Source: Ignavibacteria bacterium UBA2360 (GTDB taxonomy: Bacteria; Bacteroidota; Ignavibacteria; Tepidaquicellales; OLB5). From it: a stretch of DNA of 64,000 nt. The notes beneath the pieces were generated by a model that had not been told where the DNA came from, ran no database searches, and saw only the letters and a program-made list of their open reading frames with translations. How positions within the stretch are numbered: the first letter of the stretch is position 1; each line of letters opens with the position of its first letter. The stretch is taken from positions 77,683 through 141,682 of the forward strand of contig DDTQ01000010.1 of the NCBI GenBank assembly GCA_002344125.1, written 5' to 3'. Positions 1,365 to 57,838 of the stretch are shown here, in pieces. Made by a program: the position numbers and the translations under genes.

Positions 1365-1367
1365 TCT

Positions 1368-1691
1368 ATGCAGGCTCTCCAGTTGCTTGAACATAATTAT
1401 CCGCTGTATATCACCATCTGGCTGGTTATAACTGTTTTCATTCTATGGTTTTTCAGGTTCATGACAAGAAAGATGAGAGATACAGATGACAGGCAAACTA
1501 AAAGTTCATTGTTTACCATTACAATGTTCCTTGGCATCCCGCTGTTAATTGCAATTGTTGTCGGTCCTGTATTTTTTCTTATTGGTGATAAAAATATGGA
1601 TTCAGAATACCGCTTCTTATGGCTAGGACTTATATTTATATTTTTGCTGTATTTCCTATTTAAACAAAGAAAACCAAATTCCGGAAAATGA
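1368..1691 (+). CDS. Small integral membrane protein, function unknown
   Basis: 107 aa with three hydrophobic segments. It starts 3 nt after the transporter stop, and its TGA overlaps the next ATG (ATGA at 1688). Confidence 0.55.
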   Translation: MQALQLLEHNYPLYITIWLVITVFILWFFRFMTRKMRDTDDRQTKSSLFTITMFLGIPLLIAIVVGPVFFLIGDKNMDSEYRFLWLGLIFIFLLYFLFKQRKPNSGK

Positions 1692-2158
1692 TAGAAAGTG
1701 AAGATATTCGGGTTTCCGCAAAAGCAATTATTATAGAAGATAACAAACTGTTGGCTGCTAAGAAGGAAGATGAACATGGTTTCTACTACACAATACCCGG
1801 AGGAGGACAGAATCACAGCGAAAATCTGGAACAGGCATTAATTAGAGAATGTATTGAGGAAATTGCAGTCACAGTAAAGATGAATAGAATTCTGTTTATC
1901 AGAGATTATATCGGGGTGAATCATGAATTTCCCGATCATGCCAGAAGAAAAGTCCATCAGCTTGAAATCATGTTCGAAGCGGAAATTATCAGCGGCACAC
2001 CGCAAAACGGCAGTGAACCCGATAACGGACAGATATCTGTTGAATGGCTGCCCTTAGATAAAATTGAAAATTACAGGTTATATCCCAAAGCATTGATCAA
2101 ACATCTGAAAAATTTCAGTGAGTTTACAAATGCAGTTTACCTCGGTGATGTGAATTGA
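1688..2158 (+). CDS. NUDIX hydrolase
   Basis: Nudix box GGGQNHSENLEQALIRECIEEIAV (G-x5-E-x7-REx2EExG-like). Confidence 0.85.
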   Translation: MIESEDIRVSAKAIIIEDNKLLAAKKEDEHGFYYTIPGGGQNHSENLEQALIRECIEEIAVTVKMNRILFIRDYIGVNHEFPDHARRKVHQLEIMFEAEIISGTPQNGSEPDNGQISVEWLPLDKIENYRLYPKALIKHLKNFSEFTNAVYLGDVN

Positions 2159-2160
2159 AA

Positions 2161-2275
2161 GTCACCGTGAGCGTATGTCGCCCTGAGCGCTGTGCCCGCC
2201 TATGGCGGAGACGAAGCAGTCTCATATTTCCACGCATTTTTCAAATTCCCCTCTCGGAAGGGGTGTGTTGTCACT
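2161..2275. repeat. Intergenic GC-rich palindromic repeat modules (CCTGAGCG..GAAGCAGTCTCA type and CCCCTC..GAGGGG type); bounds approximate
   Basis: gtcgccctgagcgc-[ccgcctatggcgg hairpin]-acgaagcagtctca at 2177-2224 and cccctctcggaaggggtgtgtt at 2249-2270. Related copies occur at 8244, 25421, 50504, 54373 and 56472, and at 8167, 18228, 34405, 37721 and 55615. Confidence 0.7.
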
Positions 2276-2304
2276 TCTCTAAAGCGAGCAAGATCATTCT
2301 TAAA

Positions 2305-2334
2305 ACAAAAAACCCGGCAATAGCCGGGTTTTGG
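2305..2334. terminator. Bidirectional rho-independent terminator between the NUDIX gene (+) and nuoB (-)
   Basis: aaaaaacccggc-aata-gccgggtttt: an 8-bp GC stem with an A-run on one side and a T-run on the other. Confidence 0.65.
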
Positions 2335-2359
2335 ATCTATATCAGATTTATAAAATACT

Positions 2360-2869
2360 CTAACTAACCATTTCCTTAACTGACTGGTCAAACAGCTTAT
2401 GATGTGTCTTGCCGATCTTTTCCTGTATCTGCATCAATCCCTGAATCAGTGCATCGGGTCTTGGAGGACAGCCTGCTACGTAAACATCAACCGGAAGGAA
2501 CTGGTCAATTCCCTGAACCACGGAATAGCTTCTGTACATACCCCCTGAGGATGTGCATGCGCCCATCGCTATACAATACTTGGGCTCCGGCATTTGGTCC
2601 CATATTTTCCTTACAACCCACGCCATTTTGTATGTAACTGTTCCGGCCACGATCATTAAGTCTGATTGCCTTGGTGAAAACCGGAATACCTCGCTGCCAA
2701 ATCTTGAAGCGTCATATCTTGATGCCGCGAACGCCATCATTTCAATTGCGCAGCAGCTTATACCCATTGGCATAGGCCATACGGCATTCTTTCTCGCCCA
2801 GCCGATAATATCACTTATCTTGGTGGTAAAAAAACCTTCGCTTTGTAAACTTGAATTCAGATCAGACAT
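2360..2869 (-). CDS. nuoB: NADH-quinone oxidoreductase subunit B
   Basis: [15 protein letters not shown]..., [23 protein letters not shown]: the N2 cluster cysteine pattern typical of NuoB/Nqo6. Confidence 0.95.
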
Positions 2870-2899
2870 ATATAAACCTTCTTTAGTTTCTTTGTAATA

Positions 2900-3268
2900 C
2901 TAGTTCCACTTTAACGCGCCTTTGCGCAGCATATAAAAATATGCAATCAGCAGTAAACCAATGAAAACCATCATTTCTATCAGCGCATATGTCAGCATCG
3001 CGCCCTCAAAACCCGTAAATGTAACCGCCCACGGATACATGAAAACAATTTCAATATCAAATATAATGAAGAGCATTGCCGCCATATAATATTTAATCGA
3101 AAACTTTGAGTGTGCGGTTCCATAAGGTTCAACACCACTTTCATAAGTTGAAAGTTTTTCGGCATTTGGCTTTTTTGGACCCAGTATTTTTGAAACCAGA
3201 ACATTAATGATAGCGAAAGCAACTGCTCCGCCCATCATGATCAAAATTGGTATATAACTTTCTAACAT
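2900..3268 (-). CDS. nuoA: NADH-quinone oxidoreductase subunit A
   Basis: YESGVEPYGTAHSKFSIKYYMAAMLFIIFDIEIVFMYPWA is the NuoA signature. The ATG at 3268 (MLESYIPIL..) gives a typical length; the longer ORF to 3304 would need a TTG start. Confidence 0.85.
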   Translation of the reverse strand: MLESYIPILIMMGGAVAFAIINVLVSKILGPKKPNAEKLSTYESGVEPYGTAHSKFSIKYYMAAMLFIIFDIEIVFMYPWAVTFTGFEGAMLTYALIEMMVFIGLLLIAYFYMLRKGALKWN

Positions 3269-3382
3269 AGTATGCAAAAATAGCAAAATAATAGCTTTAT
3301 TCAAATCACAAAAGTATTACAGAAATTAACTTAAGCAATTTGAATTATTTTGAAAATGTAGAACTAAATATGGGATTTTCCA

Positions 3383-3970
3383 TTAATCAGTATCCTGCAT
3401 GATCTTTTTCGCTCTGCTGCGAAGATTTGCCGGAATGAGTTTGTTCTTGCTTTCAAATAAAATATGAAGCGCCTGATTAATTATCTTATTCTTCCGGGGT
3501 GAATTATCTTCAGCTGCCTGCAATAATTTCTCAATAATTTCAGGCAGTTTTTTATCGCTGTATTTATCCCACTTGCTGCCGTTAATTCTATTCATTCCAA
3601 TAAAAAAGTCCAAAGGGGCAACTTCATTTGTTTTTTTTGCCCAGCTTTCAATATCATTCGCAAATTCCGAGAACAATTCCAATAACATATTGCTGCTATA
3701 ATCTGCTTCATAACTTCCCCCCTTTTTAGCGAGATAGTGACCCGTTATTTCATCTTCATCGCTCATATTATAAAGCATTAGTAAATTTCCGATCCATAAA
3801 ACGCTTCCCGCAAGCACTTCCGGAACCATATTCTCTACCGCTTCTGCTGTTTCGCTGCTGATTTTTTCCTTAAAGCAAAACACAAAATACTTTTCACCCT
3901 GGAACGAATATAAATCAAGCGGTTTGCCGTGGTTTAAATAAACGAACGGAAAAATGTTATCTGTCTGCAT
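3383..3970 (-). CDS. Hypothetical cytoplasmic protein
   Basis: 195-aa ORF with no signal peptide or TM and no motif I recognise. Its start lies 1 nt after the stop of the upstream gene, which suggests co-translation. Confidence 0.6.
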   Translation of the reverse strand: MQTDNIFPFVYLNHGKPLDLYSFQGEKYFVFCFKEKISSETAEAVENMVPEVLAGSVLWIGNLLMLYNMSDEDEITGHYLAKKGGSYEADYSSNMLLELFSEFANDIESWAKKTNEVAPLDFFIGMNRINGSKWDKYSDKKLPEIIEKLLQAAEDNSPRKNKIINQALHILFESKNKLIPANLRSRAKKIMQDTD

Positions 3971-3971
3971 A

Positions 3972-4742
3972 TCAGCTTTTACCTGTTATAACTTTCGTCT
4001 CCCATCCGTCATAAACACCATCGTACTGCTCAGCAAGGTCATAAAGCTCCGCCGTAAAATCCAGCACATCATGGTAAGTGACAGGCAGTTGTTTTGTGAG
4101 CCTTACGCTCAACGGGTAATCTGAATCCTTTTCATCAGTTCTTTCTGAAGACAGCCTGTATCCCATCTTTTCGGCTTCTTTAAGGAATTTCTTCTTTTGA
4201 TCCTCTTTTTTGAAGAATATATAATTATCTACATCACGCGGCACGCTTAAATTATCGCCCTTTGATCTTAAGTTTTCCACCACTCGCCTGTTCATAATGG
4301 TATGCATCTCGTAATTGGTAGGGTAGAGATGTTTGAAGTATTGCTTCCATTTACTGTCTTCTTCAAAATAAACTTCAAATTGATAATCGCTGTATGCTTT
4401 CATTACATCCTTAACGGACTTTTTTACACCGTTACTTTTAGGTGCGTAAAAATAGAAGATCCTCGCCCCGTCGCAGGTTTCCCTTCCTGCGAATATGGCG
4501 TTGAAAGGTTCAATCAGCGCATCCGCTATTTTATCTTCAATCTTAAACAATTTTTCACTTTCTCCGTTTGAAGAAAAACCGTTTTCCTGCGGGTCGTTCA
4601 TTGTGAGAATAACTGTCAGAAGGTAGTTCTTATCTTTAAGCGGAGCGATCCTGTTCAGCCCAAGATCAAGGTATATTGAAGCCTGTGAACCGTCAAGCTC
4701 TGTAAAATAAAAATCCCAGTTTGGCTGATATTCTGTATTCAT
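3972..4742 (-). CDS. DUF695-like N-domain fused to an RraB-like (regulator of ribonuclease activity B fold) C-domain
   Basis: N-terminus NWDFYFTELDGSQASIYLDLGL resembles DUF695. The C-part (DVDNYIFFKKEDQKKKFLKEAEKMGYRL..) resembles RraB-type domains. Both are recalled family resemblance only. Confidence 0.5.
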   Translation of the reverse strand: MNTEYQPNWDFYFTELDGSQASIYLDLGLNRIAPLKDKNYLLTVILTMNDPQENGFSSNGESEKLFKIEDKIADALIEPFNAIFAGRETCDGARIFYFYAPKSNGVKKSVKDVMKAYSDYQFEVYFEEDSKWKQYFKHLYPTNYEMHTIMNRRVVENLRSKGDNLSVPRDVDNYIFFKKEDQKKKFLKEAEKMGYRLSSERTDEKDSDYPLSVRLTKQLPVTYHDVLDFTAELYDLAEQYDGVYDGWETKVITGKS

Positions 4743-4751
4743 AGTAATTTA

Positions 4752-5996
4752 TTATTTAACAAGCATCATTTTTTTTGTATCTGTAAAACCGTTACCTTCC
4801 ATTTTGCAGAAATAGATACCGCTTGGCTTATCGGCAGCATCCCATCTCACCATATAGCTGCCCGGCTTTAGCTCACTTTGTACAAGTTCAGCAACTTCTT
4901 CGCCAAGCATGTTAAACACCGCAATTTTTATATAACCGTTCTGTGCCACCCTGAAACTGATATTAGTAACAGGATTGAACGGGTTAGGGTAGTTGCTGCT
5001 TAACCCTGAACGTTCCGGAACTTCTGTTGATGTATTGCTCAGCCCCACAAATGCTCCGCCGCCGTTAGTAGTTTTTAATATTGTACCTGAATTTCCAACT
5101 GCAAAGCCGGTTGTTACTGAACCGAACTTAAATTCAATTGCCCTAATATGGCTGGTAGTGCCCGTTGTCAGCTCATACCAGTTCGTTCCGGCGTTTGTAG
5201 TTTTGAATATTTTACCGCCAATACCCCCGGCGTAACCGGTTTGTTCATTCACAGGGAAATCCAGTCCGTACAGCGCTCCTGCGCCGGGTATTGCGTGCTC
5301 ATTCCAGTTAGAACCGCCATTTGTAGTCTTGTATATTTTTCCTGTGGTTGATGCGAATCCCGTGCTGCTGTTTATCATCTTCATCGCGTGAACTGTTGCT
5401 CCTGCGGATAATACTTCTGCCCAAGATGTACCGCCGTTTATTGTTCTTATAATATATCCTTTTTGAGTTATATCATCATATCCGCACATGAAACCGAGCA
5501 ATGAGCTTGTGAACTGGATACCATAGTTATAAGAGTTCGCATAAAGATTATTTTCCTGAATGATCCAGTTTCCGCCGCCATTGGTTGTCTTCAGTACAGT
5601 ATCGGTTGATCCGCAGATCCAACCGGTGTTATCATTCATAAAATAGGCTGTATTCCAGAAACGGTTTGGAGCAGTCAGTTTGCTCCAGTTAGTACCCGAG
5701 TTTGTTGATTTTAGTACCAAACCATTACCAAAAGCCCAGCAAGTGGTTACACCTGATATCACCACATCAGAAAGTGAATTCTCCGGTAACGGATATGCTA
5801 CATTCAGCCAGTTTGTTCCTTCGTTGGTAGTTTTGTATATCTTGCCGCCGCCAACAGAAATTATAATCGGCAAAGATGAAAAGCTTGCTATACCATACAT
5901 CGTACTTGTGGTCCCGTTTGTCTGTGGCACCCATTGAGAAAACTGAACTGATGAAATGAATATTGAACACAAAATAAAGAATTTAAATATTTTCAT
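4752..5996 (-). CDS. Secreted beta-propeller protein (BNR/Ycf48-like repeats) with T9SS-type C-terminal sorting domain
   Basis: Signal peptide present. Seven KTTN(G/A)G(T/S/G)NW-type repeats. C-terminus NYPNPFNPVTNISF...GIYFCKMEG..KKMMLVK. Confidence 0.85.
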   Translation of the reverse strand: MKIFKFFILCSIFISSVQFSQWVPQTNGTTSTMYGIASFSSLPIIISVGGGKIYKTTNEGTNWLNVAYPLPENSLSDVVISGVTTCWAFGNGLVLKSTNSGTNWSKLTAPNRFWNTAYFMNDNTGWICGSTDTVLKTTNGGGNWIIQENNLYANSYNYGIQFTSSLLGFMCGYDDITQKGYIIRTINGGTSWAEVLSAGATVHAMKMINSSTGFASTTGKIYKTTNGGSNWNEHAIPGAGALYGLDFPVNEQTGYAGGIGGKIFKTTNAGTNWYELTTGTTSHIRAIEFKFGSVTTGFAVGNSGTILKTTNGGGAFVGLSNTSTEVPERSGLSSNYPNPFNPVTNISFRVAQNGYIKIAVFNMLGEEVAELVQSELKPGSYMVRWDAADKPSGIYFCKMEGNGFTDTKKMMLVK

Positions 5997-6275
5997 TTTT
6001 TGAATTAATTAGATTTTTTTATTGAATTTTTCTTTTCAACAAAAATACCTACTGCTGTCGATGCAATTCAAAGAATGAAAATCACGATTTTGTGCCGCAA
6101 AAAAACATTCCAACGCTGCAATATGGAATATTACAGCTGCAAATGCCTTATTTGCAGTATGTTGCAAATGGAAACAATTTTTTCAAAATTGGTCTTTTTG
6201 CATAAAGGAAAAGTTTTGATTAATGTTTCAGAAAATCGGGTAATCTCTCAATGTCCTTTGATGTGAATATATGCG

Positions 6276-8072
6276 CTAGTTATAGAAACTATCAATCAGG
6301 TCTTTGTGTTTTTCTTCAATTACTTTTCGTTTAAGTTTTAAAGTAGGTGTCAATTCACCGCTTTCAATTGTAAACGGTGTATCAAGCAGCGCGAATTTTC
6401 TCACGCGTTCATATTTGGAAATCTGTTTCTGCAGCACATCAATTTCTGATTCAAAGAAGTTATGTACAATATCATTATCGGTAAGTTCGGATAGCTTTTC
6501 AAATTTAATATCCAGCTTTTTGGCCAGGGCCTCGAGCATATCTGTATCGGGAACGATAATAGCAGTAACAAAATCCCTGTGATCAGATGCGAAAGAAATT
6601 ACCTGGCTTATGTATTCACTCCGCTCAAGATTTTCTTCTATGTGCGTAAGTGAAATATATTTCCCGCCCGCGGTTTTTATCAGCGTTTTTTTCCTGTCGG
6701 TTATCTTAAGCATTCCGTTTTCTATTCTGCCAATATCACCTGTGTGCAGCCATCCGTCTATGATCATCCCGGAAGTTTCTTTCTCATTGTTAAAATATCC
6801 CTGCATAACATTTTCACCCTGTACCAGTATTTCGCCGTCATCAGCTATCTTAACGGTAACATTTTCAAGCGGGGGACCCACTGTGCCGAACTCGTTGTTA
6901 TCAAGCCTGTTCACCGATATTACCGGCGATGCCTCTGTCATTCCATAACCCTGTAAAATCAGTAATCCTATCGCATCAAAAAACTCTGCTGTTTCTTTGC
7001 TTAACGCGGAGCCTCCTGAAATGAAAAATTTTATTTCTCCGCCCGTTCTTTGCCTTATGACCGAAAAGACCTTCTTATCAGCAAGTTTCCACAATGGATT
7101 AGTTTTGTTCTCCCGGTATGCTTTCCCTATTTTCAGCGCGCGTTTTGTGATGGTGCGTTTTAGAAGCGGCATCTGTTCCACTGATTTCGTCAGCCTGCTT
7201 TGTATCCTAGTGAACAGCATGGGTACAGCAAGCACAACCGTAGGTTTAACTTCAGTCATCTGCGCTGCCAGGGTATCAATGTTCTTAGCGTAGTAAATCT
7301 TAGCGCCTTTTGAAAGAGGCACATAGTAACCGCCAGTTCTCTCGTATGTATGCGCAAGAGGCAGGAAAGAGAGGAACCGGTCCTGCGGTACCACCGGGAA
7401 AGAATCAGTGCACTGCTTAACATTTGCCAGAACATTCCTGTGTGTAAGGCACACTCCTTTCGGAACTCCCGTTGTACCTGATGTATAAATTATCGTAAGC
7501 AGCTCATCGGTATTCTGTGCTTTTGCGCGCTTCAAAAAGTACTCGTCCGCAAGTTTATCGCTGTATGCGGTCTTCTCCTCCAGAAGCTCGCCATATATCA
7601 GTTCTTCAAAGCTTATTATGTTCTCTGATGTATGATCTGTTTTGTTAAATGTAATTATCTTTTTAAGGTGCGGCAGTTCGTTAAATACAGCAGATACCTT
7701 CTCTGCCATCAGCTTAGTTGATACAAAACACAGCCTGCTTTCTGAGTGACTGAGTATGAACCTTATCTGCTCTGATGTCATTGTGGGATATACAGGTACA
7801 GTAACTATACCTTCTGTAATACATGCGAAATCAGATACTGACCATTCAAACCGTGATTCCGAAATTATCGCTGCCTTATCACCGGGCTGCAATCCATATT
7901 GCTCAATTGCCCTTGCAAGAAGGTAAACAAGTTCCTTAAGCTTGCTTCCTGAAATGTTCTTGTAAACGGAATTTTTTTCATTTTCATCTTTCCAGTAAAT
8001 AGCGCCATCATTGCCGTATCGCCTGCATACTTCTATAAAGAATTCCGTAAAATTCGAATATTGTATATCCAT
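6276..8072 (-). CDS. Long-chain fatty acid-CoA ligase (AMP-forming, ANL superfamily)
   Basis: AMP-binding motif IIYTSGTTGVPKGV, plus GYGMTE and TGDIG. The ORF is open to 8138, but the ATG at 8072 (MDIQYSNFTEFF) has AAGG upstream and fits the usual N-terminus. Confidence 0.9.
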   Translation of the reverse strand: MDIQYSNFTEFFIEVCRRYGNDGAIYWKDENEKNSVYKNISGSKLKELVYLLARAIEQYGLQPGDKAAIISESRFEWSVSDFACITEGIVTVPVYPTMTSEQIRFILSHSESRLCFVSTKLMAEKVSAVFNELPHLKKIITFNKTDHTSENIISFEELIYGELLEEKTAYSDKLADEYFLKRAKAQNTDELLTIIYTSGTTGVPKGVCLTHRNVLANVKQCTDSFPVVPQDRFLSFLPLAHTYERTGGYYVPLSKGAKIYYAKNIDTLAAQMTEVKPTVVLAVPMLFTRIQSRLTKSVEQMPLLKRTITKRALKIGKAYRENKTNPLWKLADKKVFSVIRQRTGGEIKFFISGGSALSKETAEFFDAIGLLILQGYGMTEASPVISVNRLDNNEFGTVGPPLENVTVKIADDGEILVQGENVMQGYFNNEKETSGMIIDGWLHTGDIGRIENGMLKITDRKKTLIKTAGGKYISLTHIEENLERSEYISQVISFASDHRDFVTAIIVPDTDMLEALAKKLDIKFEKLSELTDNDIVHNFFESEIDVLQKQISKYERVRKFALLDTPFTIESGELTPTLKLKRKVIEEKHKDLIDSFYN

Positions 8073-50571: not shown

Positions 50572-50943
50572 ATGAGATCAAAATTAATTTTAATTTTTCT
50601 ATTTTTAACAGTGCTGTTTTTCTCTTCCTGCTCAAGCCTTAAAGAGATAGAAAACTATGCAGGCGAGAATATTTCTATGGGAGTGGGCGGATTTGCCTCT
50701 GTTACTATGGAAGCCGATACTCACCAGGGGTATGATTGGGTAGTTTCTTCCAGCAGCAATTCATCAATTGCCAAATATGAAGGCAAAGAGAATAATTACG
50801 GAGAAAAGAATACGGATCTTACCAAACAGGTAATTAAATTTAAAGGATTGAAAAAAGGTAAAACTATTATTACTTTGAATTATGTTAAGCAGGGCGATAT
50901 GCTTGCCAAAAAAACAAGAACTGTAAATATTACTGTTTACTAA
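50572..50943 (+). CDS. Lipoprotein, degenerate chagasin-like (peptidase inhibitor I42) domain
   Basis: Lipobox FFSSCS. L2-like THQGYDWVV; the other inhibitory loops are not obvious. Confidence 0.5.
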   Translation: MRSKLILIFLFLTVLFFSSCSSLKEIENYAGENISMGVGGFASVTMEADTHQGYDWVVSSSSNSSIAKYEGKENNYGEKNTDLTKQVIKFKGLKKGKTIITLNYVKQGDMLAKKTRTVNITVY

Positions 50944-50953
50944 TAGCACAAAT

Positions 50954-51775
50954 TTGAAATTTACGACTAAGACATTTATTGCATTCCTCTTCCTTTTCAT
51001 ATCACAGAGTGTATTCTGCTACAGCGATACTTCTTCTGTTAATGAACCGGGACAATATACCTTTATTCGACAGGATTACTTTGGTCTCAACGATGAATAC
51101 GAAACTCCGTACTACATCTTTAAAGGTAAAAAAAACGGACCCGTAATGATCCTCGATGGGGGTATTCATGGTGATGAGATAGCTTCTTATATGGCATGCG
51201 ATTCAATCGTAAAATACCTGAACCTCTATTCCGGTACGCTGATCGTTATTCCCAGAACCAACATAATAGCATGCAATCAAAATACCAGGCAGGTGAATTT
51301 TGATTTCAATCATGCATTTCCGGGTGATATAACCGCTGACCTGTTTGAATACAGGCTGGCTTATGAACTTATGTGGATAGTTGATTCAGTAAAACCTGAT
51401 CTCATTATTAACCTTCACGAAGCAAGGACCAAATGGTCACCAAAAGCTCTAACTGACCCAGAAAAGGCCTATGGCCAGATCGTCATTTCCTGCCTGCAGC
51501 CGTTTGAGGAATTGCTCGTACGCTCTGTTGATAACATGAATAAACGCATTCCCGAAGGTGATTATCAATTTCACACGCATTATTATTCTTACCGCGATCA
51601 CAGCTCACTGGATAACTTTGTTTCAAAGTTCAATATTAAATCATATACTGTCGAAACATACCGTGGATTCGATATCGACGCGCGCGTCAAACTGCAGCTT
51701 ATAGCTGCGCTGCAATTTATGGAAGAAATAGGGCTGGAATTCAGTTTCCCTGCTCACTTAACAGCATTTCAATAA
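50954..51775 (+). CDS. Secreted M14-like zinc carboxypeptidase / succinylglutamate-desuccinylase-aspartoacylase superfamily protein
   Basis: TTG start and signal peptide. GGIHGDEIAS (HxxE zinc motif) and INLHEA (second His). Confidence 0.55.
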   Translation: MKFTTKTFIAFLFLFISQSVFCYSDTSSVNEPGQYTFIRQDYFGLNDEYETPYYIFKGKKNGPVMILDGGIHGDEIASYMACDSIVKYLNLYSGTLIVIPRTNIIACNQNTRQVNFDFNHAFPGDITADLFEYRLAYELMWIVDSVKPDLIINLHEARTKWSPKALTDPEKAYGQIVISCLQPFEELLVRSVDNMNKRIPEGDYQFHTHYYSYRDHSSLDNFVSKFNIKSYTVETYRGFDIDARVKLQLIAALQFMEEIGLEFSFPAHLTAFQ

Positions 51776-51824
51776 GCTTAATTGTTATGGCTTGGGGTAA
51801 TTCAAATAATTTAATTTAATCAAC

Positions 51825-52205
51825 ATGAAAAAAATAATAAACGCATCTGCATTAATTTTTTTGATTGGTTTGGTAACAATTTCCTACTCACAGGAAAAGA
51901 CTTACACTGAAACCAGCACAGAAATAGTAGCTTCTGTTGGCGAGAATTTCACAATTTCACTGGAATCAAACCAATCAACAGGCTATTCATGGTCTGTTGG
52001 TATGGTAAGTGATAATGCCCAGGTAGTAGTTGCAGGAATGGATTACGATCTGCCCGAAGGCTCTAAAACAGGGCAGGGGGGAGCCGAAGTGTGGCACTTA
52101 AAAGCTGTCGCTCCGGGTTCTGTAAAACTTATGTTCTATTACGCACGGTCATGGGAAAAAGATGCTCCCGCAAAAACAGTAACATTCAATGTTTCAATAA
52201 AGTAA
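51825..52205 (+). CDS. Secreted chagasin-family cysteine-peptidase inhibitor (I42)
   Basis: All three inhibitory loops are recognisable: NQSTGYSW (L2), GQGGAEVW (L4, GxGG), ARSWE (L6, RPW-like). Confidence 0.75.
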   Translation: MKKIINASALIFLIGLVTISYSQEKTYTETSTEIVASVGENFTISLESNQSTGYSWSVGMVSDNAQVVVAGMDYDLPEGSKTGQGGAEVWHLKAVAPGSVKLMFYYARSWEKDAPAKTVTFNVSIK

Positions 52206-52968: not shown

Positions 52969-53295
52969 TTATATCTTGAATTTTCGCCTGGATAGCTTAA
53001 TTGTAAAATGAATTCTGGAATCAAGCGCATTGAATACTTTCATAATCGTATCAAAGCGGGCGTTTGTCAGGTTATTTTCAAGTTTGGATATCTGTGATTT
53101 TTGCACACCTACAAGTTTACCTAATTGACCCTGTGTCAATTTCCGCTTACGTCTTGTCTGTTTGATAGCTTCACCAAGGAACTCGAGTTTTAACTCGTAC
53201 TCAAAATCTTCCCTCCGTTTGGTTCCTCTTTTGCCGATAAATTTATCAGTCAATTCATCTAGGGTATATAATTCCAGTTTGCCTTTTTTATGCAT
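52969..53295 (-). CDS. XRE-family HTH antitoxin (HigA-like)
   Basis: HTH KLTQGQLGKLVGVQKSQISKLENN. The gene starts 2 nt after the toxin stop. Confidence 0.8.
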   Translation of the reverse strand: MHKKGKLELYTLDELTDKFIGKRGTKRREDFEYELKLEFLGEAIKQTRRKRKLTQGQLGKLVGVQKSQISKLENNLTNARFDTIMKVFNALDSRIHFTIKLSRRKFKI

Positions 53296-53297
53296 AA

Positions 53298-53633
53298 TTA
53301 TTTTAAATTAAAATATTCTTTTCTTAAAGTTTCTGCATGTTCAATTTCTGCTTTGGGAGTTTTTGATGTCTTCTTAATTAAGCCGTGAGTATTTACCACA
53401 AGAATATTTTCCTTATTTGTTTTATCCCAAAATGCAAATAGTCTGTAGTAGGTTTTGTTGTAAATTGTCCTGAACTCCCATATGTCTTCGGTTAATTTTT
53501 TAAATAAACCGGGATCGTTAAATAACTGAGCTTTTCGAATATTAAATAGTATCTTATCTCTGGATTTTACATCTATCGATTCAAGAAAATCTTTAGCTTC
53601 TTTCAGGAAAAGTACATTAAACTTACTATTCAT
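53298..53633 (-). CDS. RelE/ParE-superfamily toxin (Gp49/HigB-like)
   Basis: FLKEAKDFLESI..DIWEFRTIYNKTYYRLFAFWDK...LVVNTHGLIKKTSKTP is typical of the Gp49-like toxin family. The toxin-first gene order matches higBA. Confidence 0.8.
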   Translation of the reverse strand: MNSKFNVLFLKEAKDFLESIDVKSRDKILFNIRKAQLFNDPGLFKKLTEDIWEFRTIYNKTYYRLFAFWDKTNKENILVVNTHGLIKKTSKTPKAEIEHAETLRKEYFNLK

Positions 53634-53695: not shown

Positions 53696-53726
53696 ATAAA
53701 AAAGCCGGATAAAGAATATATCCGGC
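53696..53726 (-). terminator. Rho-independent terminator closing the zinc-ribbon gene string
   Basis: On the minus strand: gccggata-tattctt-tatccggc followed by tttttt. It lies 30 nt after the stop at 53756. Confidence 0.75.
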
Positions 53727-53755: not shown

Positions 53756-54364
53756 TTATGCCACCTCAATCCCCAAAACTGCATCCTTAAGCCTGCCGTT
53801 AGGCTGTTTGTAGAACGGTACGCCAAGTACCTGGTAGCTCTTTACGTTAATATCGTAATTGATATTTCTCACAGTATCGCTTTTTTCAGCTTCTATTGAA
53901 AGGAATAAAAATTCTGCTATCTTTTTAGCGTCATCCTTGGAAAAATTAAATCCTGTAAGCTTTACATTATACTTCTGCGGTGAAGGTACCGCGTTCTTCA
54001 GAGTATAATTAACTCCAATGTTCTTTGCGGATTCTATAGGCATCCAGAATGCAGGCACATAAAATTTAACGTCGCCTTCGGTCTTATTGGCTCCGCCAAA
54101 AAGATTTGATATCCACCCGCCGGATGAATCGCGTGAGTGGATTCTTACATGCGCATCAACAAGCCAAAAGCCTTTATAAACCAGCTCGCCATCGCCCTTA
54201 ACCAGGGGAGCGGCAAAGTTCACTTCCATTGGAACCAGCTCATCGTTTACAATTTCCCAGCCGTTTCCGCAGCTTGAGCAATATACGATGCTGTCATTCA
54301 TTTCAACGGTTAGCCCGCTATCGCATGATTTGCATTTTACAGCTATTAATTTAAAATCTTCCAT
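53756..54364 (-). CDS. Zinc-ribbon protein paralogue 3 (soluble; no TM)
   Basis: CKSC-x14-CSSC at the N-terminus. Shares aromatic beta-rich motifs with the two upstream genes (LVYKGFWLV, FYVPAFWMP, YQVLGVPFY). The ATG at 54364 with GAAGG upstream is preferred over the GTG at 54388, which lies inside a repeat module. Confidence 0.7.
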   Translation of the reverse strand: MEDFKLIAVKCKSCDSGLTVEMNDSIVYCSSCGNGWEIVNDELVPMEVNFAAPLVKGDGELVYKGFWLVDAHVRIHSRDSSGGWISNLFGGANKTEGDVKFYVPAFWMPIESAKNIGVNYTLKNAVPSPQKYNVKLTGFNFSKDDAKKIAEFLFLSIEAEKSDTVRNINYDINVKSYQVLGVPFYKQPNGRLKDAVLGIEVA

Positions 54365-54372
54365 AACCTTCA

Positions 54373-54423
54373 ATCCTGAGCGAAGCACCTGCCTGAACTG
54401 CCGTTACGGCAGGCAGGTTCTCA
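54373..54423. repeat. Nested repeat between zinc-ribbon genes 2 and 3
   Basis: atcctgagcgaagca-[cctgcctgaactgccgttacggcaggcagg]-ttctca. The inner 30-mer (54388-54417) is 29/30 identical to the reverse complement of 22300-22329. Confidence 0.85.
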
Positions 54424-54486
54424 TCAGTAGATCCTCAAATTTAAATTTATTTAATAAAAAATGTTTACCTGCAGCCTGCAGTTGCA

Positions 54487-55572
54487 TTATCTCCTCAAGA
54501 AGCTCGAAGCAATACTCGCCACATCAACAACATTCATACCCGATGCCATGTTTTTTACAGTATTGCCGCCTTTGCCTCCAAGAAAACTCTTTTTTGGCGC
54601 GGCAACAATTCCTGTGCCTTCTTCTATTTCGCCGCCATATCTGAACTTCTTATAACCCCACATCATAATAATTATACCGAATATCAGTGCAAAGATATAT
54701 ACAACCAGCGCCGCTTTCGCGCTGTCACCATCTCCAATTATACCGAAAATTCCAAAGAAAGTAACAAGATATGTCCCAACCGCTGTTCCAAAAATACCCG
54801 CAACAGCGCGGTATAAATTATTACCCGGCGCCTTGCCGTAACATATCGTACCATCTTCGCCATCTACCACTACCTGGTAAGTTCTGCCTTTATATAAATA
54901 TCTTACTACCCATAACGGGTAATATACTATAGATACATTAGGTCTGACAAGATCGTTATGCTGAAACGTGATCTGATCAACCTTAACGGAATTAACAGCC
55001 TCATTTACAAACTGTTCCTTAGCTATATCGGTCACTTCACGTTCAGATGAAATAATATTAAAAAGCATTCCCTCTGATTGCAGCTCTTCAAAATTTATGG
55101 GACGCATTTCATCGCCTGCAAGGTTTACCTTGCGCACGCCAAGCTCCGCGACATCACATGCCGCAAATGTCCTGTCAAACGGTTTCTGAATTTTGCGCTC
55201 AACATCAACATAATATGTAGTTGTCCTGCCGTTAACCGTTTGCGTGCGGCGCTCTTTTCCGAATACCCAGCCAATAACATCAGCTCTTACGCGCCAATAG
55301 GGTATGTAAACCAAAAACGCGTCATCAATCTTTGCGTCATTTTTCAGCCCGCGCGCCTTGGCAAGTCCCTTGCCAAGCCAATTGAACATATTCTGTATAG
55401 CTATATTCCGCTGTATCTTTCTCGGAACGTAATACTTAACAACGCCATCTACACCTTTTGTCAGCAAAAGAGTGCCGCAGTACTTGCAGTTGAAAGTTTT
55501 TACTCCTTCTCTTAAGTCAAGTTCTCCTGCGCAGGCGGGACACGTTATTCCTTTTAATACTTTTTCAGCCAA
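54487..55572 (-). CDS. Zinc-ribbon membrane protein paralogue 2 (two C-proximal TM helices + Gly-rich tail)
   Basis: CPAC-x14-CKYC. Motifs FLVYIPYWRV and SIVYYPLWVVRYLYKGRTYQVVVDGEDGTI. TMs LYRAVAGIFGTAVGTYLVTFFGIFGIIG and AALVVYIFALIFGIIIMMWGY. TTG is the only available start. Confidence 0.7.
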   Translation of the reverse strand: MAEKVLKGITCPACAGELDLREGVKTFNCKYCGTLLLTKGVDGVVKYYVPRKIQRNIAIQNMFNWLGKGLAKARGLKNDAKIDDAFLVYIPYWRVRADVIGWVFGKERRTQTVNGRTTTYYVDVERKIQKPFDRTFAACDVAELGVRKVNLAGDEMRPINFEELQSEGMLFNIISSEREVTDIAKEQFVNEAVNSVKVDQITFQHNDLVRPNVSIVYYPLWVVRYLYKGRTYQVVVDGEDGTICYGKAPGNNLYRAVAGIFGTAVGTYLVTFFGIFGIIGDGDSAKAALVVYIFALIFGIIIMMWGYKKFRYGGEIEEGTGIVAAPKKSFLGGKGGNTVKNMASGMNVVDVASIASSFLRR

Positions 55573-55614
55573 TTTACAATAAAATTATAGATTCGATTAT
55601 TATTTTTACTCATT

Positions 55615-55655
55615 TCCCCCCTCTCCTCTCAGGAGAGGGGATGGGGGTGAGGTTT
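55615..55655. repeat. CCCCTCTCC-loop-GGAGAGGGG..GGGGTGAGG repeat module between zinc-ribbon genes 1 and 2
   Basis: cccccctctcctctcaggagaggggatgggggtgaggtttt, ending 5 nt from the stop of 55660..56463. Confidence 0.8.
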
Positions 55656-55659
55656 TAAT

Positions 55660-56463
55660 TTACACTTTCTTCGCTATCACATACGCCATCACTATCAGAG
55701 GTATTGATACAAGACCGTAAGCGAATATCTTAAAGAACTCCGCTGTAAGCAAAGCTTCTTCTATGTAGCTGCTGTTTAGTGCGAAACCTATTACGTAACA
55801 CAATATACTGGTTATCACAAAAGCGGCAATGCTGAGTCCAAATAGAATTCTGAACGGTGCTTCGCTCTTTGCGGGATAGATATTTGAGTACACTTGTCCC
55901 GAGGAAGCTTCAACCAGCGCAGTGTAACTCTGCCCGCCAAAATTGTAATAAAACTGGTAGAACGGTATGTGAACCAGTGCGGCTTCTTTGACAATATCAA
56001 GGCTTACGCCGGAACCCTGCAGCCATGCCTGGGCTGAATCATACAGCACATCCGGCTTTACGATCTCATGGTCATTGTGGATATTTTTATCATAGAACTT
56101 AAGTGCACCGGCAGGTATCTGCAGCTTCTTTATCTCAGAAACGGATGTGCTTGCCGCAGGCTGCAGAAATATCTTGTCACCTGAGCCGTCCTTGGTCTTA
56201 AAGTACCACACAGGGAAGTAATAGAACTCAGTCTTTACTATCTGCGCTTTCTGGTCAAGATCTTTAACAGTATGATTACCCGACATCCAGCGTTTTAAAT
56301 TGCCTTCTGCCTCATTGGGTTTGAAGTTTGAATGTATAAGGTAATGGAATACTACTTTTCTTTTATCTAAAAATAAAGCCGATGCGCAAAAAGGACACTC
56401 TATGAAAGTTTCATCCTGTTGTACTGTAACATCAGCTCCGCATTGTGTACATTTTATTTGCAT
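55660..56463 (-). CDS. Zinc-ribbon membrane protein paralogue 1 (two C-terminal TM helices)
   Basis: CTQC-x14-CPFC. Motifs FYYFPVWYF and ALVHIPFYQFYYNFGGQSYTALVEASSGQV. TMs FRILFGLSIAAFVITSILCYVIGFAL and FFKIFAYGLVSIPLIVMAYVIA. Confidence 0.75.
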   Translation of the reverse strand: MQIKCTQCGADVTVQQDETFIECPFCASALFLDKRKVVFHYLIHSNFKPNEAEGNLKRWMSGNHTVKDLDQKAQIVKTEFYYFPVWYFKTKDGSGDKIFLQPAASTSVSEIKKLQIPAGALKFYDKNIHNDHEIVKPDVLYDSAQAWLQGSGVSLDIVKEAALVHIPFYQFYYNFGGQSYTALVEASSGQVYSNIYPAKSEAPFRILFGLSIAAFVITSILCYVIGFALNSSYIEEALLTAEFFKIFAYGLVSIPLIVMAYVIAKKV

Positions 56464-56471
56464 TTTTTCAA

Positions 56472-56650
56472 CTCTGAGCGCAGCGTCTGCCTTATAGTGC
56501 TATGCACGAGAAGGAAGAGTCTCTTCGCTATTAATGTAATACTTTAATAAAAAAATGAATTGACACGACCTCTTGACTGCCACTGCAGTTTAGGTCGTGG
56601 ATACTAGAACCAAAAAATAACCGGGGCTTTCTCCGAAGGAGTGCCTTTGG
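56472..56650. repeat. Repeat mosaic in the 360-nt spacer between the SPFH gene and zinc-ribbon gene 1; bounds approximate
   Basis: ctctgagcgcagcg..gaaggaagagtctc (56472-56524). cacgacctcttgactgccactgcagtttaggtcgtg (56564-56600) plus ccggggctttctccgaaggagtgcctttggcaagccc, similar to 19674-19745. Confidence 0.75.
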
Positions 56651-56771
56651 CAAGCCCAAGTTTAACATCAAATATCTAAAATAATGAAAGTTCTGAATAA
56701 TAGAAATGATTTCTTTATTCTTAAAACACAGTAGCACAGAAATTTGCTTGACCTTTAGGTCTGTCTGTGTA

Positions 56772-56808
56772 TAATAAAATTAAGAAGGACAGACAAAAAT
56801 GTCTGTCC
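56772..56808 (-). terminator. Terminator-like hairpin 17 nt after the SPFH stop (possibly partial/attenuating)
   Basis: Minus strand: ggacagac-attttt-gtctgtcc followed by ttcttaattttattat (T-rich but interrupted). Confidence 0.45.
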
Positions 56809-56824
56809 CACTATTAATTTGTTC

Positions 56825-57838
56825 TTACAGTTTCGAAAGCAGATCTTTTTTCTTTGTATCAAATTCCTCCTGGGTCAGCGCGCCTGCATCCTTAAGCTTT
56901 GCGAGCTTTTCTATGGTTGCAAGTACATCATCCTGTGACTGCTGAACAGGTGCCTGCTGGTTGTTCTGCTGCTGGTTCTGTGGATTCTGCTGATTCTGCT
57001 GCATGGAACCCATCATCATGTTAGCCATTGTCATACCGGCTCCCAAGCCAACACCTAAACCTGCTGTGCCGCCTGCGCCTTCATTTTCCGCCGCTTTTTC
57101 CATTGCCATAGCGGTCTTGAATTTCATATAGTTATCCAGATTTCCGATAGCGCCCATTGAGCTTCTTTCGTTGATCTTTTCCTGTACTTCATCCGGCGGA
57201 ACTATACCTACTATTATTAGATCCGTCAGCTCAATACCCATTGCATTGAAGAAATCTGTGACTTCTGCCTTTATGCCGGTCTCTATCTGCGGATAGTATT
57301 GGCCCAGATCAAATACTGTTTTCAGATTCTTGCCGAGTACTGTATTTAATTTAGATACAATTGAATCCCTTAAGTAATCTTCAATCTCATTTGTGGTATA
57401 TTTACCCTGTGTACCGACTATTTCATTAATAAAAAGCTGGGGATCCTTAACCCTCATTGAGAATTTACCCGAAGCCCTCAACTGAACGAATGATAATTCA
57501 GTATCGCGGAAGTTAATGGGTGATTTGGTTCCCCATTTAAGATCAATGAATTTCTTCATTGATACATAATATACCTGCGCCTGGAACGGTGAGTTAAACC
57601 CGAATGGCAGTGAAAGCAGTTTAGTTAAGAATGGAATGTTAGCCGTTGTTAATGTATGGCGGCCCGCGCTGAATACATCAAGCGCTTTTCCGTCTTTGTA
57701 AAATACCGCTGCCTGCGTATCCTGCACAATAAGCTGCGCGCCCATTTTAATATCTGTGGAACCGGCCTGCGGTTCGCGGTGAACCAGCTCTTTGCCTGAT
57801 TCATCAAAAAATTGGATTATCTCTAATGCATTACCCAT
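56825..57838 (-). CDS. Soluble SPFH (band-7) domain protein of the YdjI/COG4260 type with Q/N-rich linker and C-terminal SHOCT domain
   Basis: N-terminus [60 protein letters not shown] is typical of TM-less SPFH proteins. It is followed by [43 protein letters not shown], then [29 protein letters not shown] (SHOCT consensus). Confidence 0.8.

What the first reader, a model, noticed from the sequence alone, without database searches (positions are those of the whole stretch)
53756..56463. Triplicated zinc-ribbon paralogues with graded membrane anchoring
SEEN: all three proteins have an identical ribbon geometry (C-x2-C-x14-C-x2-C within the first 32 residues). Each then carries two occurrences of a motif of the form aromatic-aromatic-P-x-(W/Y). 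Early copies are FYYFPVWYF, FLVYIPYWRV and FYVPAFWMP. Late copies are ALVHIPFYQFYY..G.SY..LVEASSGQV, SIVYYPLWVVRYLYKGRTYQVVVDGEDGTI and YQVLGVPFYKQPNGRLKDAVLGIEV. Lengths are 267, 361 and about 202 aa. Paralogue 1 ends directly in 2 TM helices. Paralogue 2 has 2 TM helices plus a roughly 45-aa Gly-rich cytoplasmic tail. Paralogue 3 has none. INFERENCE: these arose by tandem duplication followed by subfunctionalisation, for example a hetero-oligomeric anchor plus a soluble adaptor. I do not recognise this domain as a characterised family.
Basis: partly seen in the sequence, partly recalled or inferred. Interest (0 to 1): 0.65.

Follow-up and report, generated by a model that had tools for sequence, protein, structure and literature searches.

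The report
YdjG-like zinc-ribbon trio beside SPFH
The three zinc-ribbon genes are true, ancient paralogues of Bacillus subtilis YdjG/SamG, which tethers a soluble flotillin-like (SPFH) protein to the membrane, and they follow such an SPFH gene here, so this is a three-subunit variant of a known membrane-stress module.

Summary
Three minus-strand genes, Z1 (55660-56463, 267 aa), Z2 (54487-55572, 361 aa) and Z3 (53756-54364, 202 aa), share a C-x2-C-x14-C-x2-C ribbon. Z1 and Z2 have a C-terminal two-helix membrane hairpin; Z3 has none. Profile comparisons show homology over the whole soluble part: Z1~Z2 E 2e-35 and Z3~Z2 E 3e-12.

The gene directly upstream (56825-57838) is a soluble SPFH protein (Pfam Band_7_1 plus SHOCT), 32% identical to B. 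subtilis YdjI/SamI. The Z proteins are homologous to B. subtilis YdjG/SamG (hhalign 99.4%, E 4e-21), a membrane protein needed to recruit YdjI and PspA.

S-Z1-Z2-Z3 keeps the same order and strand in all 80 related loci, mostly labelled Ignavibacteria; 65 hold all four genes. The Z1-Z2-Z3 trio also occurs in distant lineages without an adjacent SPFH gene. In some of them Z3 is fused to the C-terminus of Z2.

No PspA or YdjH/TPM gene lies nearby. No Pfam, NCBIfam or PDB match covers the post-ribbon domain.

Most likely function: a heteromeric platform on the cytoplasmic face of the membrane that docks the SPFH protein. This is a new variant of a known kind, of moderate interest.

The parts
56825..57838 (-). 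S: soluble SPFH protein (337 aa). Band_7_1 domain at residues 27-229, a Q/N-rich low-complexity linker, and a C-terminal SHOCT domain at 308-334. Homologue of B. subtilis YdjI/SamI.
   Evidence: Pfam Band_7_1 3.5e-62 and SHOCT 4.3e-9. BLASTP vs B. subtilis YdjI: 32% identity, E 1e-27. No hydrophobic segment. First gene of the conserved S-Z1-Z2-Z3 unit.
56786..56809 (-). Terminator-like hairpin (10-bp stem, then a T-rich tail) 16 nt after the S stop codon, inside a 361-bp S-Z1 spacer.
   Evidence: Function not tested. In other loci S and Z1 abut or overlap (for example L041).
55660..56463 (-). Z1 (267 aa): zinc ribbon, then the YdjG-like soluble domain, then a two-helix membrane hairpin, ending 2-3 residues after the second helix.
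   Evidence: hhalign vs the Z2 superfamily: 99.9%, E 2e-35. hhalign vs YdjG: 97.5%, E 8.5e-12.
56386..56451 (-). Z1 zinc ribbon, residues 5-26 (C5, C8, C23, C26).
   Evidence: Cys invariant in 23 homologues.
55669..55851 (-). Z1 membrane hairpin, residues ~205-265.
   Evidence: Kyte-Doolittle hydropathy.
55618..55640 (.). Perfect 10-bp inverted repeat (CCCCTCTCCT/AGGAGAGGGG) in the Z1-Z2 spacer.
   Evidence: Present only in the closest relatives L004 and L005, so probably not a conserved regulatory element.
54487..55572 (-). Z2 (361 aa, TTG start): zinc ribbon, then the YdjG-like domain built of two helix-plus-sheet modules with very long beta-hairpins, then a two-helix membrane hairpin, a conserved juxtamembrane motif KKFRYGGE[IV]EEGTGI, and a disordered tail ending in a short helix. 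The closest counterpart of YdjG/SamG.
   Evidence: hhalign vs YdjG: 99.4%, E 4e-21. tblastn of YdjG against the window: E 7.5e-9. The family has 1662 clusters at 50% identity.
55477..55542 (-). Z2 zinc ribbon, residues 11-32.
   Evidence: Invariant in 51 diverse relatives.
54649..54804 (-). Z2 membrane hairpin, residues ~257-308.
   Evidence: Hydropathy. AF2 helices at 252-270 and 284-312.
54490..54648 (-). Z2 C-terminal tail, residues 309-361 (53 aa, 9 Gly). The FRYGGE motif is conserved across phyla. Residues 327-361 have pLDDT below 50, apart from a predicted terminal helix at 352-360.
   Evidence: In fusion proteins from other lineages the Z3 module follows this tail.
54384..54421 (.). Imperfect GC-rich inverted repeat in the Z2-Z3 spacer.
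   Evidence: Not followed up.
53756..54364 (-). Z3 (202 aa): zinc ribbon plus a trimmed YdjG-like domain. No membrane segment, so the soluble paralogue.
   Evidence: Diverse Z3 profile vs the Z2 superfamily: 97.6%, E 3e-12, 194 columns.
54269..54334 (-). Z3 zinc ribbon, residues 11-32.
   Evidence: The four Cys are invariant in the 22-sequence alignment; in the 94-sequence alignment C29 and C32 are invariant and C11 and C14 nearly so.
53704..53726 (-). Terminator-like hairpin (8-bp stem plus a T-run) 30 nt after the Z3 stop; the likely end of the transcription unit.

Best explanation
The region is a four-gene unit, S-Z1-Z2-Z3. S is a soluble SPFH protein of the YdjI/SamI type. Z1, Z2 and Z3 are ancient paralogues of B. 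subtilis YdjG/SamG.

Shown here:
- The homology of Z1, Z2 and Z3 to one another and to YdjG.
- The homology of S to YdjI.
- Strict conservation of the gene order.
- The existence of Z2::Z3 fusion proteins.
- The absence of any membrane segment in S and Z3.

Inferred: Z1 and Z2 insert in the cytoplasmic membrane through C-terminal helical hairpins, with the zinc ribbon and the YpeB/PepSY-like domain in the cytoplasm. Topology is N-in/C-in, based on the reducing-compartment zinc ribbon, the absence of a signal peptide, and basic residues flanking the hairpin on both cytoplasmic sides. Z1 and Z2 associate with each other. Z3 docks on the cytoplasmic tail side of Z2. Together they form a platform under the membrane that recruits and positions oligomers of S.

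By analogy with B. subtilis, where YdjG and YdjH are required for membrane foci of YdjI and PspA, the unit would serve membrane-stress surveillance or maintenance. In this lineage it lacks PspA and the TPM protein YdjH in the neighbourhood; two extra YdjG paralogues stand in their place.
For: Homology among the three Z proteins:
- Z1~Z2: 99.9%, E 2e-35. Z3~Z2: 97.6%, E 3e-12 over the whole Z3.

Homology to YdjG, using the B. subtilis pspA-ydjGHI locus fetched:
- hhalign 98.8-99.4%, E 1e-16 to 4e-21, covering 250-258 columns from YdjG's second ribbon to its membrane segment.
- tblastn of YdjG on the window hits Z2 (7.5e-9) and Z1 (7.6e-5).

S and YdjI:
- S is Band_7_1, 32% identical to YdjI (E 1e-27).
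- Both have the same layout: SPFH domain, then an M/Q/N-rich linker, then a small C-terminal module.
- S has no hydrophobic segment.

Gene order:
- S-Z1-Z2-Z3 is on one strand in all 80 loci, mostly labelled Ignavibacteria; 65 hold all four genes and the other 15 are cut by contig ends.
- In many of these loci the genes abut or overlap.
- Flanking genes are shared only with close relatives.

Outside Ignavibacteria:
- An SPFH gene is also linked to Z genes in L085/L086 and L088.
- Z3 is fused behind Z2, after an apparently even number of hydrophobic segments (two in P0383 and P0483; less clear in P0376 and P0451). This places Z3 on the same side as the Z2 N-domain and argues for physical association.

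Experimental basis for the analogy: deleting ydjG or ydjH abolishes YdjI and PspA membrane foci, and two-hybrid assays link YdjG-YdjH and YdjH-YdjI/PspA (PMC8581546). SamG-SamH recruit SamI (bioRxiv 10.64898/2026.02.06.704340).
Against: - No interaction was tested here, and no multimer prediction was available.
- In B. subtilis the two-hybrid contact with YdjI was seen for YdjH (a TPM protein), not YdjG. No YdjH or PspA homologue lies in the window or within 7 kb in the 80 loci.
- At least five of the nine contexts examined outside Ignavibacteria hold the Z trio with no SPFH gene in the sequence shown: L087, L089, L090, L093 and the P0395 context. L092 is too short to tell. The trio's core job may therefore not be SPFH anchoring.
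- A terminator-like hairpin and a 361-bp spacer separate S from Z1 in this genome.
- The AF2 model of Z2 is only moderately confident (mean pLDDT 76), and no solved structure resembles it.
Confidence: 0.6

Rival explanations
1. The Z1-Z2-Z3 trio is an autonomous membrane-stress sensor or signalling complex. The SPFH protein is its regulator (a brake) rather than its cargo, as now proposed for SamGH/SamI in B. subtilis. SPFH linkage is therefore optional.
For: - The trio occurs without an adjacent SPFH gene in several distant lineages.
- The 2026 preprint (10.64898/2026.02.06.704340) reports that loss of SamI gives SamH-dependent constitutive stress signalling.
- A library hit (P0374) carries a kinase fragment and an AAA_16 domain in front of a Z2-like module.
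- The cross-phylum conservation of the juxtamembrane FRYGGE motif would suit a signalling surface.
Against: - No output domain or regulator gene (sigma factor, kinase, response regulator) is conserved next to the trio in the 80 loci.
- In the preprint the signalling phenotype depends on SamH, which has no homologue here.
- This reading overlaps with the anchor model rather than excluding it.
Confidence: 0.25
2. Z2, or Z1 and Z2 together, is a holin-like or abortive-infection membrane effector kept in check by the SPFH protein. The unit would be part of a defence island next to a toxin-antitoxin pair.
For: - Weak Pfam hit of the Z2 hairpin to Phage_holin_3_6 (E 0.0065, 16.9 bits against a cut-off of 28.4).
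- Some database entries for Z2 homologues are named 'phage holin family protein'.
- A Gp49/HigB-like gene plus an HTH gene lie directly downstream.
- The Z2 model resembles two giant-virus proteins in BFVD (E 1e-9 and 2e-7).
Against: - No significant PADLOC match: only a marginal ribbon-only hit of Z1 to PDC-S64 at E 0.0039.
- No relatives in IMG/VR by pattern scan.
- The toxin-antitoxin pair is present in only 3-4 of the 80 loci.
- The unit sits at a fixed chromosomal position with class-wide conservation, unlike mobile defence genes.
- The holin hit is below threshold and confined to the hydrophobic hairpin.
Confidence: 0.05
3. The zinc ribbons bind nucleic acid, and the proteins are membrane-tethered transcription or translation regulators. 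Automatic annotations suggest this (RpoP/RPC12, TFIIB-type ribbon, DUF1610).
For: - JGI names such as 'DNA-directed RNA polymerase subunit RPC12/RpoP'.
- YdjG matches Pfam Zn_Ribbon_TF (1.3e-10).
- PMC9239133 comments that this ribbon type is known to bind DNA.
Against: - All ribbon matches for Z1-Z3 are below the curated cut-offs and cover only about 30 residues.
- Zinc ribbons are generic protein-interaction modules.
- No HTH or other DNA-binding domain is present, and no target gene is conserved nearby.
Confidence: 0.05
4. The three genes are functionally redundant copies that do not form a complex.
For: They share a single fold and ribbon.
Against: - The three paralogue families have low cross-scores and diverged long ago.
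- Each keeps its own architecture, and all three are retained together in the same order across distant lineages.
- Z2::Z3 fusions exist.
Confidence: 0.03

Closest known systems
Bacillus subtilis YdjG/SamG, within the pspA-ydjGHI (samGHI) operon
   Same: - N-terminal C-x2-C-x14-C-x2-C zinc ribbon.
- Homologous post-ribbon domain, including the YxPxW strands and the '...DG.tG.v.GK.P' strand.
- C-terminal membrane anchor.
- A gene for a soluble Band_7_1 SPFH protein in the same cluster.

   Different: - Here there are three paralogues instead of one gene: two with a two-helix hairpin and one soluble.
- Each has a single ribbon; YdjG has two.
- There is no PspA and no TPM-domain YdjH nearby.
- The SPFH gene comes first rather than last.
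- The SPFH protein ends in SHOCT instead of a double zinc ribbon.
SPFH proteins with dedicated membrane partners: NfeD-SPFH pairs (QmcA-YbbJ, YqiJ-YqiK, YuaF-FloT) and HflK/C-FtsH
   Same: An SPFH-family protein is encoded next to small membrane proteins that are thought to organise or anchor its oligomer at the membrane (from the literature cited in 10.64898/2026.02.06.704340 and PMC11237479).
   Different: - No NfeD or OB-fold partner: Pfam finds none in Z1-Z3.
- The SPFH protein has no membrane segment of its own.
- The partners are zinc-ribbon/YpeB-like proteins.
PepSY / YpeB domain (Pfam PF03413)
   Same: - Helix packed on a short antiparallel sheet, with a '...V.VDG.tG.i' strand.
- Weak Pfam hits in Z2 (E 0.086) and in 5 of 51 relatives (best 0.008).
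- PMC11237479 calls the YdjG domain 'related to YpeB'.
   Different: - All hits are below the gathering score.
- Foldseek against PDB found no significant match: no hit below E 0.03, and the CD1622 lipoprotein 4exr at E 0.08 was not checked for fold class.
- The predicted location is cytoplasmic, whereas classical PepSY domains are extracytoplasmic (my own knowledge).
- The strands in Z2 are unusually long, about 30 residues.

Membership tests
YdjG/SamG family (B. subtilis) | N-terminal C4 zinc ribbon | tested here: met
   C-x2-C-x14-C-x2-C is present in Z1, Z2 and Z3, and in both ribbons of YdjG. The Cys are invariant.
YdjG/SamG family (B. subtilis) | Post-ribbon domain homologous to YdjG residues ~85-310 | tested here: met
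   - Z2 superfamily profile vs YdjG: 99.4%, E 4e-21, 258 columns.
- Z1 profile vs YdjG: 97.5%, E 8.5e-12, N-terminal half only by hhalign; hmmsearch also finds the C-terminal strand.
- Z3 profile vs YdjG: 93.5%, E 2e-7.

YdjG/SamG family (B. subtilis) | C-terminal membrane anchor | tested here: met
   Z1 and Z2 have two hydrophobic helices, where YdjG has one. Z3 has none, so Z3 alone does not meet this feature.
YdjG/SamG family (B. subtilis) | Encoded with a soluble Band_7_1 SPFH protein (YdjI/SamI) | tested here: met
   S at 56825-57838 is Band_7_1 (3.5e-62) and 32% identical to YdjI. The linkage is conserved in 80 loci.
YdjG/SamG family (B. subtilis) | Required for membrane recruitment of the SPFH protein and PspA | not testable with these tools
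   Known only from B. subtilis genetics and microscopy (PMC8581546).
Psp (phage-shock) operon of the pspA-ydjGHI type | PspA/IM30 gene and TPM-domain YdjH gene in the cluster | tested here: not met
   tblastn with B. subtilis PspA and YdjH gives no hit in the 64-kb window, nor within about 7 kb of the unit in 80 related loci.
PepSY (PF03413) | Score above the Pfam gathering threshold (24 bits) | tested here: not met
   Z2 scores 13.6 bits, E 0.086. Five of 51 relatives hit at E up to 1, best 0.008. The resemblance remains a lead, and agrees with the remark in PMC11237479.
NfeD-type SPFH partner | NfeD / OB-fold domain in the membrane partner | tested here: not met
   No NfeD hit in Z1-Z3 at E up to 1.
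Holin superfamily III (PF07332) | Score above the Pfam gathering threshold (28.4 bits) | tested here: not met
   16.9 bits, confined to the Z2 hydrophobic hairpin.
Known anti-phage defence systems (PADLOC-DB 2.0) | Match of any component to a defence model | tested here: not met
   Only a ribbon-only hit of Z1 to PDC-S64 at E 0.0039.

The most novel reading that the evidence does not exclude
The Z1-Z2-Z3 trio is a self-standing heterotrimeric (or higher-order) complex under the membrane, found across phyla and not yet defined as a family. It has more than 1,600 clusters at 50% identity and no Pfam model. Its ancestral role would not depend on SPFH or PspA. Bacillus YdjG would be a reduced, single-gene derivative whose extra first ribbon may be a remnant of a Z3-like partner. 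The roughly 30-residue beta-hairpins of Z2 would assemble into a large sheet or ring beneath the bilayer.
Probability: 0.3. Interest if true: 0.65.

Novelty: new variant of a known kind. Interest (0 to 1): 0.45.

Why it matters
YdjG/SamG has been studied only in Bacillus, as a single, poorly described 'zinc-ribbon membrane protein' that helps place an SPFH protein and PspA at the membrane.

This locus shows that YdjG belongs to a large family with no curated domain model: 1662 clusters at 50% identity. In many bacteria the family exists as a fixed set of three paralogues, two membrane-anchored and one soluble. The soluble member is sometimes fused to the second.

That gives three things:
- A concrete subunit model to test for how anchor-less SPFH proteins are tethered.
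- A definable new domain family: ribbon plus a tandem YpeB/PepSY-like module with conserved YxPxW and FRYGGE motifs.
- A natural experiment separating the SPFH link from PspA and TPM, because Ignavibacteria keep S and the trio without either nearby.

It is not a new kind of system, and no mechanism was demonstrated here.

Tried and rejected
- Pfam, NCBIfam, PADLOC and PHROGs scans of Z1-Z3 found only sub-threshold zinc-ribbon hits.
- Sequence search of PDB with four profiles found ribbons only.
- Foldseek of the Z2 and Z3 AF2 models against PDB found nothing below E 0.03, and all TM-scores were low. The pore-forming-toxin and arrestin hits are noise caused by the long hairpins.
- The first hhalign with narrow Ignavibacteria-only profiles made Z3 look related only through its ribbon: A2~A3 5%, Z3 core vs Z2 core 14%. 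Adding Z3 homologues from distant loci and from fusion proteins overturned this.
The narrower alignment returned only close relatives, mostly labelled Ignavibacteria (some Bacteroidota or Chlorobi), among the best 80 of 362. The wider distribution therefore had to come from the look-up of encoding contigs.
- The listing of cluster members gave almost no names or taxonomy for distant relatives.
- The Rfam scan of the unit found nothing.
- The intercistronic hairpins were considered as regulatory elements, but the Z1-Z2 hairpin is not conserved beyond L004 and L005.
- The IMG/VR pattern scan found no viral relatives.
- The internal repeat was not detectable in Z1 with the narrow profile.

Full report
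**1. What is there**

Four genes lie on the minus strand:
- S, 56825-57838, 337 aa.
- Z1, 55660-56463, 267 aa.
- Z2, 54487-55572, 361 aa, with a TTG start.
- Z3, 53756-54364, 202 aa. The ATG start is supported by the 94 aligned homologues, most of which are 202-205 aa.

Each Z protein begins with a C-x2-C-x14-C-x2-C ribbon. The cysteines are invariant in every 21-23-sequence family alignment and in 51 diverse relatives.

Hydropathy gives two C-terminal hydrophobic helices in Z1 and two in Z2. It gives none in Z3 or S. Z2 continues with a 53-residue tail containing 9 glycines.

Terminator-like hairpins follow S (56786-56809) and Z3 (53704-53726). No other member of these families is encoded in the window.

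**2. Are the three proteins related beyond chance?**

Yes.
- BLASTP Z1 vs Z2: E 4e-7 for the N-terminal 88 residues and 0.003 for the C-terminal motif.
- hhalign of the family profiles, Z1~Z2: 96%, E 1e-9 over 195 columns.

With narrow Ignavibacteria-only profiles Z3 matched only weakly. I then added Z3 homologues from distant contigs and from fusion proteins. The Z3 profile now aligns with the Z2 superfamily over its whole length: 97.6%, E 3e-12, 194 columns. Z1 aligns at 99.9%, E 2e-35.

That alignment corrects one detail of the finding. The Z3 segment equivalent to the 'early' motif is LVYKGFWLV (family consensus YKPFW; Pro is replaced by Gly in this genome). FYVPAFWMP aligns with another strand of Z2.

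The two motif copies in Z2 probably reflect an internal duplication. The Z2 N-module matches its C-module at 88%, E 3e-6. The AF2 model shows helix-plus-sheet twice: H55-66 with strands 81-137, then H177-195 with strands 200-250. The narrow Z1 profile did not show this repeat.

**3.

The upstream gene S is a Pfam Band_7_1 SPFH protein (3.5e-62). It has a Q/N-rich linker and a SHOCT domain and no membrane segment. That combination recalled the B. subtilis pspA-ydjGHI operon.

I recovered that locus from a metagenome, using the published ydjG primer sequence back-translated into a degenerate pattern (PMC8581546).
- YdjG aligns with the Z2 superfamily profile at 98.8-99.4%, E 1e-16 to 4e-21. The alignment runs from its second ribbon through both YxPxW strands to its membrane segment.
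- hmmsearch ranks YdjG closest to Z2 (1.4e-26), then Z1 (6.8e-20), then Z3 (6e-9).
- tblastn of YdjG against the window finds Z2 (7.5e-9) and Z1 (7.6e-5).
- S is 32% identical to YdjI (E 1e-27) and shares its layout.
- Pfam sees only a TFIIB-type ribbon in YdjG.

[quoted passage not shown] This fits the sub-threshold PepSY hits here.

**4. Comparative genomics**

A profile search of 1.84 billion representative proteins found 1662 clusters at E up to 1e-3 and 345 at E up to 1e-10. Most full-length hits are 310-380 aa with the same ribbon spacing.

In GTDB genomes 362 relatives were found. The 80 best come from MAGs mostly labelled Ignavibacteria, with some labelled Bacteroidota or Chlorobi.
- All 80 carry S-Z1-Z2-Z3 on one strand; 65 hold all four genes and 15 are cut by contig ends.
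- The genes often overlap.
- Flanking genes are shared only among close relatives.

Outside that group I examined nine contexts.
- Z1-Z2-Z3 in the same order was confirmed by HMM search in L087, L088, L089, L090, L092 and L093. For the P0395 contig it rests on gene sizes only (249, 364 and 170 aa), because no DNA was available.
- An Anaerolineae contig (L084) has two tandem copies of Z1 followed by a Z2::Z3 fusion.
- L085/L086 have S, three unrelated genes, then Z1 and Z2.

An SPFH gene is adjacent only in L085/L086 and L088. G+C of these contigs ranges from 0.32 to 0.63.

Fusion proteins join Z3 to the Z2 C-terminus after an apparently even number of hydrophobic segments (two in P0383 and P0483; less clear in P0376 and P0451). 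The fusions are P0376, P0383, P0451 and P0483.

No PspA or YdjH/TPM homologue is in the window or in the 80 loci.

**5. Structure**

The AF2 models are moderately confident: Z2 has mean pLDDT 76, with the core at 85-93, and Z3 has mean pLDDT 83. Neither has a significant match in PDB by Foldseek or by sequence.

Against BFVD, the Z2 model matches two giant-virus proteins at E 1e-9 and 2e-7. I could not follow this up.

**6. Mechanism**

Shown: the homologies, the architecture, the gene linkage and the fusions.

Inferred:
- Topology is N-in/C-in.
- Z1 and Z2 associate.
- Z3 docks on the tail side of Z2.
- The complex recruits the anchor-less SPFH protein to the inner face of the membrane.

The last inference rests on analogy with YdjG/YdjH-dependent localisation of YdjI and PspA in B. 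subtilis (PMC8581546).

The main rival draws on the 2026 SamGHI preprint and on the trios without an SPFH neighbour. It holds that the trio is itself a stress sensor and that SPFH only modulates it. Holin-like or defence readings, and nucleic-acid-binding readings, have little support.

**7. Verdict**

The family is not unknown but is barely characterised, and no curated model covers it.

The locus is a three-paralogue, PspA-less and TPM-less variant of the YdjG/YdjI (SamG/SamI) module. The trio itself is ancient and widespread, and I found no description of it in the papers I read.

Novelty: new variant of a known kind. Interest: 0.45.

Noticed in passing
window 52969-53633 (-): A Gp49/HigB-like toxin gene (PF05973, 1.1e-15) and an HTH_3 antitoxin-like gene lie directly downstream of Z3. 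Homologues are present in only 3-4 of the 80 related loci, so this is probably a recent insertion unrelated to the unit.
   Followed up: partly
window 50572-52205 (+): Two chagasin-family peptidase-inhibitor genes (Inhibitor_I42: 3.8e-6 and 2.2e-23), each with a hydrophobic N-terminus (signal or lipoprotein status not tested), flank an AstE/AspA-like gene (PF24827, 3e-9). The arrangement is conserved in 10-15 close relatives.
   Followed up: partly
window 56464-56824, 55573-55659, 54365-54486: Each spacer in the unit carries a GC-rich hairpin: 56787-56808, 55618-55640 and 54384-54421. The S-Z1 spacer is 361 bp here, whereas S and Z1 overlap in loci such as L041. The Z1-Z2 hairpin recurs only in L004 and L005.
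   Followed up: partly
Z2 model m1e5ca297202b vs BFVD: Foldseek matches two giant-virus proteins annotated 'DnaJ-like subfamily C member 3': Yasminevirus A0A5K0UBJ7 (E 1e-9) and Edafosvirus A0A3G4ZSZ8 (345 aa, E 2e-7). No PDB entry matches. These may be viral members of the family.
   Followed up: no
L084 (Anaerolineae MAG, JAFGOG010000625.1) 773-7678: Two tandem cassettes, each a Z1-like gene followed by a Z2::Z3 fusion gene (604 and 606 aa), separated by three genes with no Pfam hit on record.
   Followed up: partly
P0374 (558 aa, library hit): A protein-kinase C-lobe fragment and an AAA_16 domain precede a full Z2-like module (residues 236-550). This is either a STAND/kinase fusion or a truncated gene call.
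   Followed up: no
L081 477-1502 (B. subtilis ydjG): YdjG has two ribbons with the same x14 spacing. The extra first ribbon (residues 2-34) aligns with the Z3 ribbon when the Z3 profile is compared with YdjG (hhalign 91%; tblastn against the window E 0.057). It may be a remnant of a Z3-like partner.
   Followed up: partly
L002 and L003, between Z1 and Z2 (~6424-6995): A spacer of about 570 bp interrupts Z1-Z2 in two close relatives. It begins with a reading frame that has a signal-peptide-like start (MIKVLIFLLVLLSCAISAQ...).
   Followed up: no
L085/L086, between S and Z1: In this non-Ignavibacteria lineage, three genes sit between the SPFH gene (Band_7_1 plus a double zinc ribbon) and Z1-Z2. 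They encode proteins of 86 aa, 144 aa (weak YbjN hit) and 336-347 aa (no Pfam hit). No Z3 follows Z2.
   Followed up: partly
L087 9627-10775 and the P0395 context: Phospholipase-D-type (PLDc_2) genes lie close to the trio in two unrelated contigs. This may be a lipid-metabolism link or a coincidence.
   Followed up: no
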